Of a stretch of 64,000 nt of DNA, positions 1,341 to 7,963 are shown one piece after another (position 1 is the stretch's first letter; the number at the start of each line of letters is the position of its first letter). A program made the position numbers and the translations under genes. This DNA is from an uncultured delta proteobacterium (GTDB lineage Bacteria; Desulfobacterota; Desulfomonilia; UBA1062): NCBI GenBank assembly GCA_963752595.1, contig CAVVYZ010000017.1, positions 275,055 to 339,054 of the forward strand. Reading direction: 5' to 3'. Below the pieces are notes generated by a model. It made no database searches. It saw nothing but the letters and a program-made list of their open reading frames with translations, and had not been told where the DNA came from.

Positions 1341-1409
1341 AATGGACCGCTCCCCTTGAGCCTCTTGACAAAGGATATCATGCGGCTATTTTTTGGCAGA
1401 GAGGACTTG

Positions 1410-4400
1410 ATGAATACCTATGAAATGCGCTGTGCCGGTTGCGGTATGGCGATTGGTCGGGGGGATAGATTCTGCAGGTTCTGCGGCGTATCTCAGGCGA
1501 GCAGAGCGGGCACTCAGGAGCATCGCTACATTACCGCCCTGTATTCGGACTTGAACCGCTATACATCCCTTTCAGCTATCCTTGACCCTGAGGAATTGAA
1601 ATCAATCATGGGTTCCATTTTCCAGGAGGCAACCCGCACCATAACTTCATTTGGCGGGGTTATCGAAAAATTCTCTGGTGATGCGGTTGTTGCCCTGTTC
1701 GGCGTTCATCTCATACACGAGGACGATATCGTCCGGGCTATCCGTTCAGCCATTACACTCCATGCGTTCGTTCAAAAAGAAATGGGGAATCGATCGGGAG
1801 AACAGTTCACGATGCATACAGGGATTCATACGGGAACCGCCCTCGTAGATCAGGAGACAGGCAATAACCTTTGTCTCGGCGCCATGGGCATGCCGATCAA
1901 CATTGCTGCAAGGCTCTCAAGCATTGCCGCACCGGGAGAAATCCTCATAGATGATTCCTCCCGGAATGAGGCCGAAAGATTTTTCCATACCGAGTTTGTC
2001 GGGAACAAAATTCTGAAAGGCATCAAAGAGCCGGTATCTGCCTATCGGGTTCATTCAATGAGGCGGATACCCTTGAGCATCCATCGGCCGGCCGGTATCC
2101 CTTCGCCCATGGTCGGCAGGGAAGAGCAGATGGCATTGCTCATGAATGCACGGAACAATCTGCTGCGAGGGCGTGGAGCTTATATAGTGATTTCCGGAGA
2201 GGCAGGAGTGGGGAAGAGCAGGCTGATCCACGAGTTCTTCTGTTCTCTGCCGGATGAAGTCGCTTCATTCACTATTCAATGCCTCGATCATATGAAGGAT
2301 ACCCCATACTACCCGGTCATATCCATGATCAGGCAGATGGTCGGCATGATGGGCGAAAATGGAATCGACCTTGACCGGATAATCGAAGAGCAGCTTACCA
2401 ATCCGAGACATGCATTTCACATCAGAACCCTGCTGGGGAGCGTGCAGGAGTGTGAAGATCTCATGCCCGATATCTGGAAGACTGAGATTTTTGAAGCATT
2501 ATCGGCTTTAATGCTTTCTTTTTCTCAAACCCGGCCGTTGGCTCTCTGCATCGAGGATATACACTGGGCAGATCCAACCACCAAAGATCTCCTGCACAAC
2601 CTCATTCTTTCCGATGCCGGAGGCATTCAATGCCTGTTCGTCGTAACGTCGAGGGAGGAGCATCGAATGCATGCTTCGGGAATAACCATACCTCTTAAAG
2701 AACTGTCCAGGGAGAATACCGGAAATTTGATCATGGATATGCTGGGAGGTCTGGGCATATCCAATGAAGCTGTCGATTCCTTGTATAGAAGGACAGGAGG
2801 AAACCCATTCTACATTGAGGAATATACCTCCTTTTTACGGGAAAAGGGCATATCGCTCCTCATGACAGTGGCTGGGGAAAACACCAGGGCAATACCTTCA
2901 ACGATCCAAGGGCTTATTACAGCCAGACTGGACAACTTGGGAGCTTCCTGCAGGAATCTCTTACAGGCAGCCTCCATCATCGGGATGGTCTTTTCTCCCT
3001 CACTCCTTGAGGCGATATCTTCCAATGAACAGGAGATACCTGCATCACTTGAAACCCTTGAGAAGGCTGGATTCATAATAAGCACCCGTTCGGATGAATA
3101 CCGTTTCCGCCATGCCCTCACCAGGGAAGTTGTCTCCATGGCCCTGCTGAAGAGGAACAGAGGAGATCTCCACCGCAAGATAGGCCTTCATCTTGAGATG
3201 TCATCTAAGAGCAGGACGGAAAACTGCGGTATGATCGCATACCACTTATTCCATGCTCTGGAGCATGCAAGGGCATATCCCTACTGTATGCTCTCTGCAA
3301 GGACATATCAGGCAGAGGGTTCTTGGATCGAAGCATCGGCTCATTACCGGATGGCCCAGCTTTGCCTGGAAAAATCTCAAGATTACCCGGATCGTGATGA
3401 TCTGCTCATCAAGATAGGCGAAGGGATATGGTCCTGCTCAAGGATATTCAATCCGGATCAGGCCATTTCTGCCCTGGAAAATCTTATTTGCCTGTATAGG
3501 AAAGCAGGGCATAAAAACCAGGAGATCTTCTCGCAGATCCGTTTGATCAACCTCTATTCACAGAAGGGGTTATTCCAAAAGGCACTGGATGCCTTTGATG
3601 ATGTGGTGTCCAAGGCTTATGGAAATGATTTTTTGATTGCTGCTGCCAAGACATCCGTTGCATACACCTATACCTACCTCGGGAAGCCTATGACAGCCCT
3701 CAAATACCTCGAGGAGGCACGGAACAGGCTCGACTCTTCAGACAGATTTCTCCTTTCAGTCAACTATCTTACCGCGCTTGCCGCAAGCATATGGAGGGGA
3801 AGTATGACCGATGCCCTTGCCTGGTATTCCCGGATGAAAGAGCAGAGCTCTCCTTATATGGATCTCGACCTCATGGCCGAGGTATGGCATGGGTATATTC
3901 TTTTTCTCAAGGGCGATATCCTTGACGGGCAGAGGATATTCGATGAGGTCAGGGAAAAAGAAAAGAAACTGGGCTGCCTTGCGGGAGGATTTTCATATCT
4001 CCGTATCCAGAGTTCCATCTACCTGTATTCCCGATACTCGGGCTGTCTTGAAAAGGCCCAGGAAGAGCTTGAAAAACTGGAGGAATCAACAGTCCATGAG
4101 TCCTCTCCTTCTGCACTGCTCAGCCTCTACAGGGCATGGATCGGTATTGAACAGGGACAGTACCAAATGGTAAGGGATTTAATCGAAAACGCACTGCCTC
4201 ATCTCGAAGCAGGTATTGCCAACAGGGTGCCCTATGCCCTCAATGCACTTGCAGAAGCACTTTTAAGTCTTGGGGATCTTACGAAAGCCTCTGAAATTGC
4301 GAGCAGAAGCATAGACTGGAATTGCGAAAATGGAAATATGGACCAGCTGATCTGGGCACGAAGAATCATGGGGTGTATTTATCTCCGCCAGGACAGGAAG

Positions 4401-4628
4401 GATGCTGCGGAGGATTCCTTATCGACAGCTTCCCGCCTTGCCTGGGAAATGAAAATGAAGCCTCATGTCGCCTGGACAGTCGGATCCTGGGGAGACCTCC
4501 ATGCGTCAAGCGGAAAATGGAAAAAAGCCAAATCGTGCTATGCAAGAGCGATCACCCTGTGGAGGGGCATGGGGAATACTTATCAGGCTGAAAAAATCGA
4601 GGCGGTACTGACACGTCTGCCCACCTGA
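1410..4628 (+). CDS. Zn-ribbon + class III adenylate/guanylate cyclase + STAND-type (AAA_16) NTPase + TPR protein
   Basis: CxxC...CxxC at the N-terminus; cyclase motifs ALYSDL, IEKFSGDA, INIAARL; Walker A GEAGVGKS; Walker B LCIEDIHWAD; TGGNPFYIEE; helical TPR-like C-terminal half. Start placed at ATG 1410 after GAGGA. Confidence 0.85.
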   Translation: MNTYEMRCAGCGMAIGRGDRFCRFCGVSQASRAGTQEHRYITALYSDLNRYTSLSAILDPEELKSIMGSIFQEATRTITSFGGVIEKFSGDAVVALFGVHLIHEDDIVRAIRSAITLHAFVQKEMGNRSGEQFTMHTGIHTGTALVDQETGNNLCLGAMGMPINIAARLSSIAAPGEILIDDSSRNEAERFFHTEFVGNKILKGIKEPVSAYRVHSMRRIPLSIHRPAGIPSPMVGREEQMALLMNARNNLLRGRGAYIVISGEAGVGKSRLIHEFFCSLPDEVASFTIQCLDHMKDTPYYPVISMIRQMVGMMGENGIDLDRIIEEQLTNPRHAFHIRTLLGSVQECEDLMPDIWKTEIFEALSALMLSFSQTRPLALCIEDIHWADPTTKDLLHNLILSDAGGIQCLFVVTSREEHRMHASGITIPLKELSRENTGNLIMDMLGGLGISNEAVDSLYRRTGGNPFYIEEYTSFLREKGISLLMTVAGENTRAIPSTIQGLITARLDNLGASCRNLLQAASIIGMVFSPSLLEAISSNEQEIPASLETLEKAGFIISTRSDEYRFRHALTREVVSMALLKRNRGDLHRKIGLHLEMSSKSRTENCGMIAYHLFHALEHARAYPYCMLSARTYQAEGSWIEASAHYRMAQLCLEKSQDYPDRDDLLIKIGEGIWSCSRIFNPDQAISALENLICLYRKAGHKNQEIFSQIRLINLYSQKGLFQKALDAFDDVVSKAYGNDFLIAAAKTSVAYTYTYLGKPMTALKYLEEARNRLDSSDRFLLSVNYLTALAASIWRGSMTDALAWYSRMKEQSSPYMDLDLMAEVWHGYILFLKGDILDGQRIFDEVREKEKKLGCLAGGFSYLRIQSSIYLYSRYSGCLEKAQEELEKLEESTVHESSPSALLSLYRAWIGIEQGQYQMVRDLIENALPHLEAGIANRVPYALNALAEALLSLGDLTKASEIASRSIDWNCENGNMDQLIWARRIMGCIYLRQDRKDAAEDSLSTASRLAWEMKMKPHVAWTVGSWGDLHASSGKWKKAKSCYARAITLWRGMGNTYQAEKIEAVLTRLPT

Positions 4629-4899
4629 TATATCAGGTGGAAATCTGCCTTTATCTTTCGAAAATACCGTCAGGATATTTTTATCTCTCATGTTTTCAAT
4701 GATCGAATCGATACGGATTATATAAAGGCAGGAGAATTGCCGGTACGGTTCTTTGACAATTGAGCGGGGCATGCCATGTGTATTCTTTGTCCCAGAGAAT
4801 AGACATGGGTAAAAGAGTAACTACAAGCAGACGGAACGTCGAAAGAAATCAAAACGGGGGTATGGGCAAAGGCCGTCACAAGATTGCTCATATTCTCAT

Positions 4900-4980
4900 T
4901 CACAAGCCAAACCACAGGTAACTGTGGGACGGAAAGCCTAGGGTCCGTACCGATCAATGGGCGGACAGCCGGGTTGCCTC
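4900..4980 (+). ncRNA. c-di-GMP-I (GEMM) riboswitch aptamer, copy 1
   Basis: GCCAAA-CCACAG-GTAA-CTGTGG-GACGGAAAGCC...GGGTCCG...CGGACAGCCGGGTTGCC: P2 with GNRA loop, GGAAAG junction, P3 and GGTTGCC end, as in deltaproteobacterial GEMM-I RNAs. Confidence 0.88.
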
Positions 4981-5066
4981 CTTCACTGCCACACCATGGG
5001 TAACCATGGGCCGGAAAGCCAAGGGTCCGAAAAGAGTGCTCGGACAGCCGGGTTGCCTGAGAAGGA
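4979..5066 (+). ncRNA. c-di-GMP-I (GEMM) riboswitch aptamer, copy 2
   Basis: GCCACA-CCATGG-GTAA-CCATGG-GCCGGAAAGCC...GGGTCCGA...TCGGACAGCCGGGTTGCC. P1 can form as TCCTTC (4979-4984) / GAAGGA (5061-5066). Confidence 0.88.
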
Positions 5067-5079
5067 TTCACCAGCACAG

Positions 5080-5162
5080 TCACTCTAGCCACACCATGGG
5101 TAACCATGGGCCGGAAAGCCGCGGGTCCACCCTGAAAGTGGACAGCCGGGTTGCCTGGAGAA
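5080..5162 (+). ncRNA. c-di-GMP-I (GEMM) riboswitch aptamer, copy 3
   Basis: Same P2 as copy 2 (CCATGG-GTAA-CCATGG), GGAAAGCC, P3 GTCCAC...GTGGAC, CAGCCGGGTTGCC. Ends ~15 nt before the SD AAGGAG. Confidence 0.88.
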
Positions 5163-5182
5163 CTTATCAGAAAGGAGTTCCA

Positions 5183-5680
5183 ATGAAGAAAACAAGCCTA
5201 TTTGCTGCTCTCTATATGATCGGACTGCTTTTGTTACCGCAGGCAGGATCAGCCAAAATGGTGGCTCTGTCAGACAACACCTTGAGCGAAGTCGTCGGTC
5301 AGGCGGGGATTGCGAATGATGCAATCCACGCGGCATTCGACTCGCATTTTGACAATGTATCGACGATGAACGGGATTTTGAATCTGAGCGATGTAACGAT
5401 CAGGGGTTCTGTAGACATTAGGGATGTAAACGCGATGAATATAACCATGGTCAATCAATTGACGAATCCCGGTCTTTCGAGTCTTCCCTGTTTCGGGATG
5501 ATGGGACTTGGGTCAATGGGCCTCGGAACCCACGTTATCGATATGGCCACCAACATCGACCAGTTTTCTATCGGCGCCATCCGCATAGGGAGAGATACGA
5601 CTAGTCCCAGCCTCGGCAGTATCGACATATTGGATATGCACGTAGATATCAAAGGGACAGTATCAATTACGGCGCGCTAG
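5183..5680 (+). CDS. Secreted DUF6160/FilA-like protein
   Basis: SD AAAGGAG, Sec signal peptide, then MVALSDNTLSEVVGQAGI (typical DUF6160 N-terminal motif) and a beta-rich C-terminus SLGSIDI...KGTVSITAR. Confidence 0.7.
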   Translation: MKKTSLFAALYMIGLLLLPQAGSAKMVALSDNTLSEVVGQAGIANDAIHAAFDSHFDNVSTMNGILNLSDVTIRGSVDIRDVNAMNITMVNQLTNPGLSSLPCFGMMGLGSMGLGTHVIDMATNIDQFSIGAIRIGRDTTSPSLGSIDILDMHVDIKGTVSITAR

Positions 5681-5763: not shown

Positions 5764-6564
5764 TTATTGGCGGATAAGGCGGTATTTCCTGATATCACAG
5801 GGATCGACCTCGTACGAGCACCGTACGGGATTGATGTCGATCCCTCCCCGCCTCGTGTAGAAGCATCCGACCAGCAGCTCTTCCGGTGTGCCCCGGGAGA
5901 GAAAGTCCAGAAATATCTTTTCGCAGCACTCCTCTGCGAATCCCTCATGATCCCGGTATGAGCAGAGGTATTTGAGGAGTGCCGGATGATCGACCTTCCT
6001 CCCTCGATACTCGATGAAAACACTGGCCCAGTCAGGCTGGCGGGTGATGGGGCAGTAAGATTTAAACAGATGGGAGGAAAGGATCTCGTGTCCTGTTTCT
6101 TCTTGTACGGCAAGGAGATTTGGGTCGACTCCATGGGAGCGGATATCGACGTCGAGATCATCTATGCAAACCCCCGGGAAGGTGTTTTCCCAGGGAATAT
6201 TCTCGCCCCCTCCAGCCTTACGGATGGAAACGTCTATCCAGGGTGTAGATAGGATTTTCTCGAGATCCCGATCGATTACGGATCCGATCTCCTCCGTGGT
6301 AGAGAAAGACGTGTTTGAAAGGCTTCCCAGGTAGAGTTTCAGTGATTTCGATTCAACGATATTCATGCTCCGGACTGGATAGACGATCTCTATGATCCCA
6401 ACCTCGGGCTTGCCTCTGTGATTGAGCCAGGAGAGCTCATAGCACCTCCAGAGATCGAACCCGTGGAGAACCTCCTTACTTCGAATCCTGGGGATGGCAT
6501 AGAGAATTGAAGGATCATATGAACGGGGAGCGGCAACTTTTTTACCCAGGAGGATATCATTCAT
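5764..6564 (-). CDS. queF: NADPH-dependent 7-cyano-7-deazaguanine reductase (long form)
   Basis: DLWRCYELSWLN, VESKSLKLYL QueF motif, catalytic CPITRQPDWAS, YTRRGGIDINP, RLIRQ end. Confidence 0.95.
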   Translation of the reverse strand: MNDILLGKKVAAPRSYDPSILYAIPRIRSKEVLHGFDLWRCYELSWLNHRGKPEVGIIEIVYPVRSMNIVESKSLKLYLGSLSNTSFSTTEEIGSVIDRDLEKILSTPWIDVSIRKAGGGENIPWENTFPGVCIDDLDVDIRSHGVDPNLLAVQEETGHEILSSHLFKSYCPITRQPDWASVFIEYRGRKVDHPALLKYLCSYRDHEGFAEECCEKIFLDFLSRGTPEELLVGCFYTRRGGIDINPVRCSYEVDPCDIRKYRLIRQ

Positions 6565-7220
6565 TTTTCATACTCCGTGGGATCGAGGTCCTGCTCAAAG
6601 CCGAGAGCCACCTTTCTTTCGAGACAGGTGGCACATTTTCCGCAGTGAAGTTCCTGTCCCTTGTAACAGGAGAAGGTCATTCGAAAATCGAAATCCAGGC
6701 TTCTGCCAAGCTCGGCTATGCGTTTTTTATCATAGGATGCAAACGGGGCGAGGATAGACACCCCGGTGAACGTTCCTTCCTGTGCAGCCTTTGACATGGC
6801 CTCGGTAAAACCAGGTCTGCAGTCCGGATAAATGGGGTGGTCCCCGCTGTGGGAGGCGATGAGCACGATGGATATCTCAAGGTTCTCGGCGTATCCTGCC
6901 GCGATGGAGAGCATGATCCCGTTTCGGAAGGGTACAACGGTGGATGAGATATTGTCTTCTGCATACGGACCTTCGGGGATCTCTTCCCCTGATGCAAGGA
7001 GTGATGACGAGAAGAGCTCGTTGATGAAGGGAAGTTCTATCTTCTTCAACTCTGCACCGTAGTAACGGGCAAGCTCCTCTGTCTTTCTGTATTCCCTGGC
7101 AGCGTGCTTTGACCCGTAATTGAAATAGAGGCCGTGGATCCGCTCATACCTGTCCCTTGACCATGCGAGCAGAACACCTGAATCCATGCCTCCTGAGAGA
7201 AGGATTACTGCATCGCCCAT
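6561..7220 (-). CDS. queC: 7-cyano-7-deazaguanine synthase
   Basis: LSGGMDS, VPFRNGIMLS, YPDCRP, SCY...HCGKCATC. Confidence 0.95.
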   Translation of the reverse strand: MGDAVILLSGGMDSGVLLAWSRDRYERIHGLYFNYGSKHAAREYRKTEELARYYGAELKKIELPFINELFSSSLLASGEEIPEGPYAEDNISSTVVPFRNGIMLSIAAGYAENLEISIVLIASHSGDHPIYPDCRPGFTEAMSKAAQEGTFTGVSILAPFASYDKKRIAELGRSLDFDFRMTFSCYKGQELHCGKCATCLERKVALGFEQDLDPTEYEK

Positions 7221-7963
7221 CAGACTCCCCTCCTTGCATCAAAGGCCAGGACATGGAGCCGCGGCGACATCCGGTACCCTTTCCGGAGGCAGTAACCGAA
7301 CACCGCCTCCATATTCCTGAGCTGGTCTTCCCTGGTTGCACCCAGCGGCATGACGAATACCTTTTCTCTGTCGATCCGGTTTGTCTCGATGAATCCTTCG
7401 ATTGCCTCCTGCCAGCCCGAGTCTCCGGCCAGGAATTTATAATAGTCGGCGCTGCTGAGATTATCCGGGTCAAAATGCCAGATCCCATCTAGGTACTTCG
7501 GGCTGCAGACGATGACTGCATCCTTGACGGAAGGAATCTTCACCTTGCCGCTCGTTTCATACTGCAACGCAAAGCCCTGCTGCAACAGTCCGGCATGGAG
7601 GTCTGAGAGACCGCTTTCCCACTGAAGAAAAGGCTCGCCTCCGGTTATGACTGCACGGAGGCAAGGGTAGGGCTGTAAGGTGAGGAGGATATCATCAATA
7701 CCCATTTCGCCGGCCTGGGTCAGTGCATACCTGGTATCGCACCAGGGACAATACGGCTCGATGCATCCCGATAAACGGATGAATACTGCAGGGAGGCCTA
7801 TCCATGGCCCTTCTCCCTGGAGGGAAGAGAAAATTTCCGAGACCTGCAGGGAAGTTTTTCTGGCATTTCCTATAGTGTTCTTCACAGGTTCCATCTGTCC
7901 TTTCCAAGACATATGAGGGATAATTTTTATCGCGGGATACCTCTCGTCCGCTTTTTTGCTCAT
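7220..7963 (-). CDS. queE: 7-carboxy-7-deazaguanine synthase (radical SAM); true start may be further downstream
   Basis: SEIFSSLQGEG, FIRLSGC, ITGGEP, ETSG, SPK, SPRLH; in an operon with queC/queF. Confidence 0.9.
   Translation of the reverse strand: MSKKADERYPAIKIIPHMSWKGQMEPVKNTIGNARKTSLQVSEIFSSLQGEGPWIGLPAVFIRLSGCIEPYCPWCDTRYALTQAGEMGIDDILLTLQPYPCLRAVITGGEPFLQWESGLSDLHAGLLQQGFALQYETSGKVKIPSVKDAVIVCSPKYLDGIWHFDPDNLSSADYYKFLAGDSGWQEAIEGFIETNRIDREKVFVMPLGATREDQLRNMEAVFGYCLRKGYRMSPRLHVLAFDARRGV

What the first reader, a model, noticed from the sequence alone, without database searches (positions are those of the whole stretch)
4900..5182. Triple-tandem c-di-GMP-I aptamers apparently sharing one expression platform
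Seen: three GEMM-I aptamers back to back, with only ~10 nt between cores 1 and 2 and ~30 nt between 2 and 3, and no terminator between them. All have G at the discriminator position (4906, 4988, 5088). Known: G20 favours c-di-GMP and A20 favours 3',3'-cGAMP; triple tandems are rare. Seen: CTCCTT (4978-4983) can pair with the SD AAGGAG (5172-5177) or with GAAGGA (5061-5066) as P1 of aptamer 2, and it is also the 3' flank of aptamer 1. Inference: an interlocked, possibly cooperative, translational ON switch.
Basis: partly seen in the sequence, partly recalled or inferred. Interest (0 to 1): 0.8.

Follow-up and report, generated by a model that had tools for sequence, protein, structure and literature searches.

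The report
Nested triple c-di-GMP riboswitch
Three c-di-GMP-type RNA sensors sit back to back before one gene in a family of uncultured bacteria, and their conserved linkers are predicted to fold the sensors one inside another so that the signal likely hides the ribosome-binding site and turns the gene off, a shared-switch design not found in the papers searched.

Summary
Observation confirmed: three c-di-GMP-I aptamers (58.8, 52.7, 55.3 bits; cut-off 35), all G20/A47/C92, with no terminator between them, before a DUF6160 gene. The complete triple is in 28 of 52 family genomes searched.

The ON reading is less well supported than an OFF reading. In 41 distinct leaders the linkers allow one nested fold that gives every aptamer its G-C93 closing pair:
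- aptamer 3 in the usual way;
- aptamer 2 with a strand downstream of aptamer 3 (CUGA/UCAG);
- aptamer 1 with the Shine-Dalgarno (SD) itself (CUCCU/AGGAG).
This fold costs 0.4-0.7 kcal/mol against 8-9 for shuffled linkers (0 of 100 as low). Modelled binding makes the SD harder to open in 34 of 37 to 39 of 39 leaders.

Against: the two outer helices are invariant, so they show no covariation. The model often forms them without ligand, and it gives a Hill slope near 1 in 4 of 5 leaders. Nothing is tested at the bench.

The scan noted this triple (e1-6408296) and nested aptamers read as ON (e1-5166037) before, on other DNA.

The parts
4688..4714 (+). Sigma28/FliA-like promoter candidate (TCAT, 15 nt, ATCGATAC); start near 4720 inferred
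   Evidence: Motif seen by eye at the same spacing in most of the 41 upstream regions printed; consensus recalled; FliA over cut-off in the genome; 78 loose matches genome-wide, so it is a candidate only
4748..4821 (+). Conserved unexplained element: covarying hairpin 4774-4808, possible outer stem 4748-4754/4812-4818, and a possible sigma70 promoter inside it (TTGTCC 4787-4792, TAAAAG 4810-4815)
   Evidence: 5 of 15 hairpin pairs change on both sides, 20 cells, 0 of 500 shuffles; no Rfam match, best E 0.66; TTG 18 nt before the -10 candidate in 26 of 41
4856..4897 (+). Hairpin just before aptamer 1, variable in sequence, absent in four relatives (L041, L043, L044, L059)
   Evidence: Pair probability 0.97; alignment
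4906..4977 (+). Aptamer 1 core (G20 4906, C44 4930, A47 4933, C92 4977)
   Evidence: RF01051 58.8 bits; degenerate in 5 of 41 leaders
4978..4987 (+). Linker 1: 3' flank of aptamer 1, anti-SD (CUCCUU 4978-4983) and 5' flank of aptamer 2
   Evidence: CUCCU invariant in 41 of 41; 7 nt long in 14 leaders, 9-11 nt in 27
4988..5056 (+). Aptamer 2 core (G20 4988, C44 5012, A47 5015, C92 5056)
   Evidence: RF01051 52.7 bits; A20 in 2 sister genomes, U92 in 1
5057..5074 (+). Switching strand after aptamer 2: CUGA (5057-5060) plus AGGAUUCACCAG (5063-5074); pairs either with linker 1 (predicted ligand-free fold) or with 5155-5170 (predicted bound fold)
5088..5154 (+). Aptamer 3 core (G20 5088, C44 5112, A47 5115, C92 5154)
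   Evidence: RF01051 55.3 bits; G20, A47 and C92 invariant in 41 of 41
5155..5170 (+). 3' strand of P1 of aptamer 3 (5155-5165) followed by UCAG (5167-5170), the predicted displaced P1 partner of aptamer 2
   Evidence: G5074-C5155 and G5170-C5057 possible in 41 of 41; 3 pairs with two-sided changes, 4 cells
5172..5177 (+). Shine-Dalgarno AAGGAG, predicted P1 partner of aptamer 1
   Evidence: Invariant; partner of C93 of aptamer 1 in 37 of 39 full leaders when all three sites are made to close
5183..5680 (+). Regulated gene: 165-aa DUF6160 protein with a signal-peptide-like N-terminus; fibre subunit is a weak lead
   Evidence: Pfam PF19657 30.3 bits, cut-off 27; 38 homologues; best fold match a pilus-like filament at Z 5.9, rmsd 3.2, 85 aligned (weak)

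Best explanation
The leader holds three c-di-GMP-I aptamers that share one ribosome-binding site and likely act as a nested translational OFF switch for the DUF6160 gene. Shown by sequence: three cores with G20/A47/C92, no terminator, and conserved linkers. Predicted ligand-free fold: linker 1 (CUCCUUCA) pairs with the strand after aptamer 2 (CUGAGAAGGA), or with other weak partners; the anti-SD is held and the SD is only weakly paired (median 2.4 kcal/mol to open). Predicted bound fold: aptamer 3 closes its ordinary P1 (CAG 5072-5074 with CUG 5155-5157, extended by UUC/GAA). The tail of that strand (UCAG 5167-5170) displaces linker 1 and becomes the P1 partner of aptamer 2, so aptamer 3 lies inside aptamer 2. 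Freed CUCCUU pairs with the SD, and that helix is at once the P1 of aptamer 1 and a helix inserted in the joining strand of aptamer 2. Each bound c-di-GMP would stack on a G-C93 pair and help lock the SD away. Inferred and least certain: that the sites help one another (Hill slope above 1) and that binding runs from aptamer 3 to aptamer 1.
For: (1) C93 has a G partner at all three sites in 41 of 41 leaders, and the helices stop at C93: the base opposite position 92 cannot pair in 122 of 123 cells, the exception being the aptamer that lost C92. G14-C93 is a P1 pair of bound Vc2 (PMC11705072, passage); G20 and C92 contact the ligand (PMC6140456, passage). (2) When C93 and U94 are only told to pair with anything, the full leader picks CAG in 39 of 39, UCAG in 38 of 39 and the SD in 37 of 39. 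(3) Closing all three costs 0.7, 0.4 and 0.5 kcal/mol in three leaders; shuffled linkers cost a median 9.2, 9.0 and 8.0, with 0 of 100 as low in each. (4) Unpaired nucleotides around the inserted SD helix total 4 or 5 in 40 of 41 (2+2, 1+4, 1+3) and 6 in one, close to the five-nucleotide joiner of Vc2, although linker length changed between two clades. (5) Cost of opening the SD rises from a median 2.4 (free RNA) to 5.0, 5.3 or 7.3 kcal/mol (bound) for three choices of 5' end, in 34 of 37, 39 of 39 and 39 of 39 leaders; without any P1 rule it rises in 32 of 37, 37 of 39 and 38 of 39. A dose model gave OFF in 19 of 19 leaders tried (of 39 usable) under two P1 rules. (6) A second family (3 of 12 genomes, one genus) has the same unit with other letters: CGGCGG after aptamer A with CUGCUG after aptamer B, then AA and an SD that pairs with the 5' flank; the fourth pair is C-G where this family has A-U (read by eye).
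Against: The CUCCU/AGGAG helix never varies and CUGA/UCAG has one one-sided change, so neither has covariation support inside the family; only the P1 of aptamer 3 has 3 pairs (4 cells) changed on both sides, reached by 67 and 32 of 500 shuffles. With cores enforced and no ligand, the SD helix is often already formed: median probability 0.55, under 0.2 in only 12 of 37; median 0.80 with the shorter leader. For this genome it is 0.02 or 0.88 depending on the 5' end. The extra SD cost on binding was matched by 7, 20 and 20 of 100 shuffles. Hill slope was about 1.0 in 4 of 5 leaders, with aptamer 1 doing most of the work, yet aptamer 1 is the one that decayed in 5 of 41 leaders. The natural double L007 and the single-aptamer loci of the second family show no switching in the model. 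No paper seen shows that an aptamer with a displaced P1 or a four-way junction binds ligand; Cd1 binds without P1 (PMC9262584, section 21). The 41 leaders are kin, not independent.
Confidence: 0.55

Rival explanations
1. Shared-platform ON switch. The nested or another SD-buried fold is the ligand-free state; ligand stabilises linker 1 paired with the strand after aptamer 2, or pulls aptamer strands off the SD, and frees the ribosome site.
For: The model often has the SD buried without ligand. In this genome the free RNA pairs GAACUU 5160-5165 with GAGUUC 5175-5180 at 0.92, and P1 of aptamer 3 would remove that strand. The two folds are close in energy (median difference -1.4, range -6.4 to +2.3 kcal/mol). 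YUCA/UGAR is kept in 40 of 41 leaders. With the long leader and no P1 rule, SD opening in this genome falls slightly, 3.3 to 2.9. GEMM-I cores can bind without a canonical P1 (PMC9262584). High c-di-GMP usually favours surface fibres (general knowledge).
Against: The linker helix buries G20 of aptamer 2 in 14 of 41 leaders; in L009, the one short-linker leader folded step by step, it also pairs C92 of aptamer 1 at 0.8. It leaves 0-1 nt of joiner. The bases after GGAG that make the local hairpin vary among relatives. A P1 rule that accepts the linker helix still gave OFF in 19 of 19.
Confidence: 0.25
2. One aptamer does the switching and the others only pre-organise the fold, buffer ligand or are decaying copies; response is 1:1, not cooperative, whatever the sign.
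For: Hill slope about 1 in 4 of 5 leaders; removing sites 2 or 3 barely changes the modelled response in this genome. Aptamer 1 is degenerate in 5 of 41, aptamer 2 altered in 3 of 41, and one genome has only two.
Against: All three cores keep G20/A47/C92 in most leaders over a deep tree. The model credits aptamer 1, but aptamer 3 is the one never lost (13 of 41 rows were found with a pattern at its 3' end, which biases this).
Confidence: 0.12
3. The array acts on RNA level (Rho access, decay, or a stable leader that titrates c-di-GMP) rather than on ribosome loading.
For: The leader is 360-460 nt, C-rich and untranslated; no read data here show ends or strand (one search held contigs of relatives only).
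Against: An invariant 5-6 bp complement to the SD and helices that end two bases before the SD point to translation.
Confidence: 0.06
4. Recent neutral duplication or collapsed assembly.
For: Aptamers 2 and 3 share 33 identical bases; one metagenome contig (L076) looks collapsed.
Against: Triple in 28 genomes of 4 genera, each unit with position-specific flanks.
Confidence: 0.02

Closest known systems
c-di-GMP-I (GEMM-I) riboswitch, Rfam RF01051; Vibrio cholerae Vc2
   Same: P2 with GNRA loop, P3, C44, G20/A47/C92. Vc2 is a translational OFF switch in which bound P1 represses translation (PMC11705072, PMC9262584, passages).
   Different: Three cores; C21-G46 in place of G21-C46; only aptamer 3 has a P1 made from its own 5' flank, while aptamers 1 and 2 are predicted to take theirs from downstream strands.
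Bc3-5 triple-tandem c-di-GMP-I riboswitch of Bacillus thuringiensis (PMC4759541, passages)
   Same: Three class-I aptamers in one leader.
   Different: Each Bc unit is complete with its own terminator and is taken as independent, transcriptional and ON; here there are no terminators, the linkers are 10 and 31 nt, and there is one SD.
Tandem glycine riboswitch (two aptamers, one platform; PMC9481103 section 16)
   Same: Homologous adjacent aptamers before a single expression platform; cooperativity expected.
   Different: Different ligand and fold; three sites; coupling predicted through shared, nested P1 helices rather than aptamer-aptamer docking. That review lists only glycine, guanidine-II and NAD+-I under tandem aptamers and files tandem c-di-GMP-I as pseudo-cooperative.
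GEMM-Ib cGAMP riboswitches of Geobacter, some in tandem (PMC6456294, PMC6140456, passages)
   Same: Same scaffold; the C21-G46 style is like Geobacter examples as recalled.
   Different: G20 not A20; no Hypr serine in 10 aligned GGDEF domains; the Geobacter examples are described as transcriptional.

Membership tests
c-di-GMP-I riboswitch (RF01051) | Covariance-model score over the gathering cut-off | tested here: met
   58.8, 52.7, 55.3 bits against 35
c-di-GMP-I riboswitch (RF01051) | Pocket bases G20, A47, C92 | tested here: met
   All three aptamers
c-di-GMP-I riboswitch (RF01051) | P2 with GNRA loop, P3, and the C44/G83 bases (tertiary pair recalled) | tested here: met
   GUAA loops; C44 and the G at 4968, 5047, 5145 invariant
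c-di-GMP-I riboswitch (RF01051) | P1 formed between 5' and 3' flanks with G14-C93 on top | tested here: inconclusive
   Met for aptamer 3 (G5074-C5155, joiner 8-16 nt in relatives). Not in the usual orientation for aptamers 1 and 2, whose predicted partners lie downstream. Cd1 is a member without P1.
c-di-GMP-I riboswitch (RF01051) | Tetraloop-receptor contact and ligand binding | not testable with these tools
   Needs probing or ITC
GEMM-Ib (cGAMP) riboswitch | A at position 20 | tested here: not met
   G in all three; among 41 leaders A20 occurs in aptamer 2 of 2 sister genomes and in a degenerate aptamer 1 of 2 leaders
Pseudo-cooperative tandem riboswitch (Bc3-5 type) | Each aptamer has its own expression platform or terminator | tested here: not met
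   No terminator-like site between units; linkers of 10 and 31 nt
Cooperative tandem-aptamer riboswitch (glycine type) | Adjacent homologous aptamers with one expression platform | tested here: met
   One SD, one gene, no terminators
Cooperative tandem-aptamer riboswitch (glycine type) | Hill coefficient above 1 | not testable with these tools
   Secondary-structure model only: 1.00, 1.79, 1.01, 0.99, 0.96

The most novel reading that the evidence does not exclude
A three-site c-di-GMP sensor built like Russian dolls: two aptamers use circularly permuted P1 helices, one of them the Shine-Dalgarno helix itself, so three ligand molecules cooperatively lock one nested fold. It would be a truly cooperative, single-platform cyclic-dinucleotide riboswitch and a natural module (anti-SD, core, downstream P1, AA, SD) that stacks as singles, doubles and triples.
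Probability: 0.3. Interest if true: 0.85.

Novelty: new variant of a known kind. Interest (0 to 1): 0.66.

Why it matters
Tandem c-di-GMP-I riboswitches are filed as independent units with separate platforms (PMC9481103, PMC12452182, PMC4759541; passages). This one cannot work that way, and its conserved linkers give exact, testable helices. If the nested fold holds, it shows a route to cooperativity through shared P1 helices rather than tertiary docking, and natural circular permutation of a well-studied aptamer. It would also give a compact part for steep c-di-GMP biosensors. Natural variants supply controls: a double, decayed first aptamers, an A20 middle aptamer, and singles and doubles in a second family. 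It also ties an unstudied DUF6160 protein to c-di-GMP control.

Tried and rejected

A linker-1 pattern over 401 phylum genomes hit 6 genomes outside the family; none had an Rfam match and the reversed control hit about as often, so they are chance. A CTTTGACAA-to-aptamer pattern hit 39 of 401 genomes, mostly noise by eye apart from the second family (those loci were not examined further).

TTGACA at 4753 as a -35 box was rejected, because its distance to the conserved block varies by about 6 nt. AAAAGAG (4811-4817) as P1 partner of aptamer 1 was chosen in 1 of 39 leaders. A covariance model of the upstream element found nothing outside the family in 151 genomes, with few candidates scored per genome.

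RNA runs: only contigs of relatives at small word shares. They cover aptamer-like and gene-like stretches but give no start, strand or level, so they are not used as evidence.

DUF6160 fold: pLDDT 62.8, no PDB sequence match, one Z of 5 or more; a FilA or Fap link is recalled and was not confirmed by papers.

Literature: searches found no nested or permuted c-di-GMP-I array. Nelson 2015, Kellenberger 2015, Smith 2009 and Sudarsan 2008 were not held, and the supplements of PMC9481103, which may list the 12 triplets, could not be read.

Full report
Observation. The three aptamers are real. A whole-genome search with RF01051 gave three matches over the cut-off of 35 bits, at window 4896-4981 (58.8), 4978-5060 (52.7) and 5078-5158 (55.3). 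Regex, blastn and nhmmer found no other copy in the assembly. All have G20, A47 and C92. No plus-strand terminator-like site lies between 4650 and 5733. The gene behind the SD (5183-5680) is a 165-aa DUF6160 protein. Record titles of related loci point to Desulfomonilia and unnamed deltaproteobacteria.

Relatives. The leader matched 31 of 52 family genomes, in 4 of 14 genera; pattern scans added 32 metagenome and 25 genome stretches. Of 97 loci parsed, 95 gave aptamers and fell into 45 distinct leaders; 2 were incomplete and 2 were doubles, leaving 41 triples for alignment A2, 28 from genomes and 13 from metagenome contigs. A tree of the coding region shows one split between a 7-nt linker (14 rows) and a 9-11-nt linker (27 rows), with the double L007 nested among triples, and L076 identical in its gene to a triple, so likely collapsed. 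Aptamer 1 is degenerate in 5 rows, aptamer 2 has A20 in 2 sister genomes and U92 in 1, and aptamer 3 never loses its pocket bases. These rows are kin and are not independent samples.

Anatomy of the linkers. While loops and joiners vary freely, four short words do not: CUCCU after aptamer 1, CUGA and CAG after aptamer 2, and UCAG before the SD (one UCGG). They allow two folds. In fold B, CAG pairs with CUG after aptamer 3, UCAG pairs with CUGA after aptamer 2, and CUCCU pairs with AGGAG. In B each aptamer has a G opposite C93 (41 of 41 at each site), and the base opposite position 92 cannot pair in 122 of 123 cells. In bound Vc2, G14-C93 is a P1 pair (PMC11705072, passage), and G20 and C92 contact the ligand (PMC6140456, passages). 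That the ligand stacks on the C93 pair is recalled from the crystal structures, which were not held. In A the base opposite C93 of aptamer 2 is G20 itself in 14 rows, G in 12, C in 10, A in 4 and absent in 1, and at most one joiner base remains. In B the unpaired bases on the two sides of the SD helix sum to 4 or 5 in 40 of 41 rows, near the five of Vc2.

Folding tests (ViennaRNA, P2 and P3 enforced; L015 and L069 left out because their first core could not be defined, L065 and L074 also left out where the long 5' end was missing). Told only that C93 and U94 must pair, the full leaders chose CAG in 39 of 39, UCAG in 38 of 39 and the SD in 37 of 39 (the shortest leader gave 39, 39 and 32). Closing all three sites cost 0.4-0.7 kcal/mol in three leaders against medians of 8.0-9.2 for shuffled linkers, 0 of 100 as low each time. 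SD opening cost rose from a median 2.4 kcal/mol in the free RNA to 5.0, 5.3 and 7.3 in the bound state for three 5' ends (34 of 37, 39 of 39, 39 of 39), and in 32 of 37, 37 of 39 and 38 of 39 without a P1 rule. For this genome: 3.3 to 4.2, 3.3 to 6.9 and 3.6 to 10.5. A dose model using the 43-fold P1 gain reported for pilM (PMC9262584, passage) gave OFF in 19 of 19 leaders tried under two P1 rules.

Results against. The two outer helices have no two-sided change; the P1 of aptamer 3 has 3 such pairs in 4 cells, reached by 67 and 32 of 500 shuffles. With cores enforced and no ligand, the SD helix has median probability 0.55 (under 0.2 in 12 of 37) or 0.80, and for this genome 0.02 or 0.88 by 5' end, so the model cannot fix the ligand-free state. 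The rise in SD cost alone was matched by 7-20 of 100 shuffles. Hill slopes were 1.00, 1.79, 1.01, 0.99 and 0.96. The double L007 was flat. With the long leader and no P1 rule this genome moved slightly the other way (3.3 to 2.9).

A second family. Among the 150 listed of 212 RF01051 matches in 151 phylum genomes, one back-to-back pair lay outside the family. It and its relatives (3 of 12 genomes, one genus) precede small genes with DUF6160-like starts (below the Pfam cut-off; hhalign 45%). The doubles read anti-SD, aptamer A, CGGCGG, aptamer B, CUGCUG, AA, SD. The singles read anti-SD, aptamer, a hairpin closed by C93-G, AAA, SD. The fourth pair of the displaced P1 is C-G there and A-U here, and one anti-SD pair is U-A in doubles and C-G in singles (read by eye). 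In the model two of three doubles take the nested, SD-buried fold when bound; SD cost rises 0.4-2.0 kcal/mol in the doubles and by -0.1 to +0.3 in the three singles. This supports the architecture more than the sign.

Context. A sigma28-like motif at 4688-4714 is conserved (consensus recalled) and FliA is present; a sigma70-like promoter at 4787-4815 is also possible. None of 10 aligned GGDEF domains has the Hypr serine (PMC6456294, passage), which favours c-di-GMP. Other DUF6160 genes of the genome sit with a C39 peptidase and outer-membrane barrels, and the best fold match is a pilus-like filament at Z 5.9; a secreted fibre subunit is a weak lead.

Comparison and verdict. It is a member of c-di-GMP-I by score and pocket, not a Bc3-5-type chain of independent units (PMC4759541, passages), and it resembles the glycine tandem in sharing a platform (PMC9481103, section 16 and passages). 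PMC12452182 (passages) finds c-di-GMP enriched among separate tandem units. Searches found no nested or permuted array, but four primary papers and one set of supplements could not be read. Two earlier notes of this scan cover the triple and nested units on other DNA; the second reads them as ON. Odds: nested OFF 0.55, ON 0.25, single effective site 0.12, RNA-level control 0.06, artefact 0.02. New variant of a known kind; interest 0.66.

Noticed in passing
window 4748-4821: Conserved element with a covarying hairpin (5 of 15 pairs), invariant TCTTT.ACAA and GGGTAAAAGAG words and no Rfam match; part RNA hairpin, part perhaps a sigma70 promoter. CTTTGACAA also precedes the aptamers of the second family.
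   Followed up: partly
window 4992/5011 and 5092/5111: In aptamers 2 and 3 of the long-linker clade A24 becomes C together with A43 becoming C or U, a paired change at non-canonical positions.
   Followed up: no
L028 and L030, aptamer 2: A20 in the middle aptamer of two sister genomes, one event on the tree.
   Followed up: partly
L007:1352-1717 (G024): Natural double that lost linker 1; modelled as unregulated.
   Followed up: partly
L129-L134 (G107, G422, G455): Single and double aptamers with a downstream P1 and a 5' anti-SD before DUF6160-like genes in another family.
   Followed up: partly
L121:599-10082 (G000:C7): Cluster of three DUF6160 genes with a C39 peptidase, a MetA-pathway-type barrel and a FadL-like barrel, resembling a fibre secretion operon as recalled.
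   Followed up: partly
window 1356-4628 (+): 1090-aa class III nucleotide cyclase, AAA and TPR protein directly upstream; the upstream sequence differs among relatives, so probably unrelated.
   Followed up: no
window 5764-7963 (-): Convergent queuosine genes: queF and queC by Pfam, and a likely queE-type radical SAM gene by eye.
   Followed up: no
RNA contigs laid on window 4899-4980: Loose ends show other organisms with back-to-back c-di-GMP-I aptamers and different short linkers.
   Followed up: no
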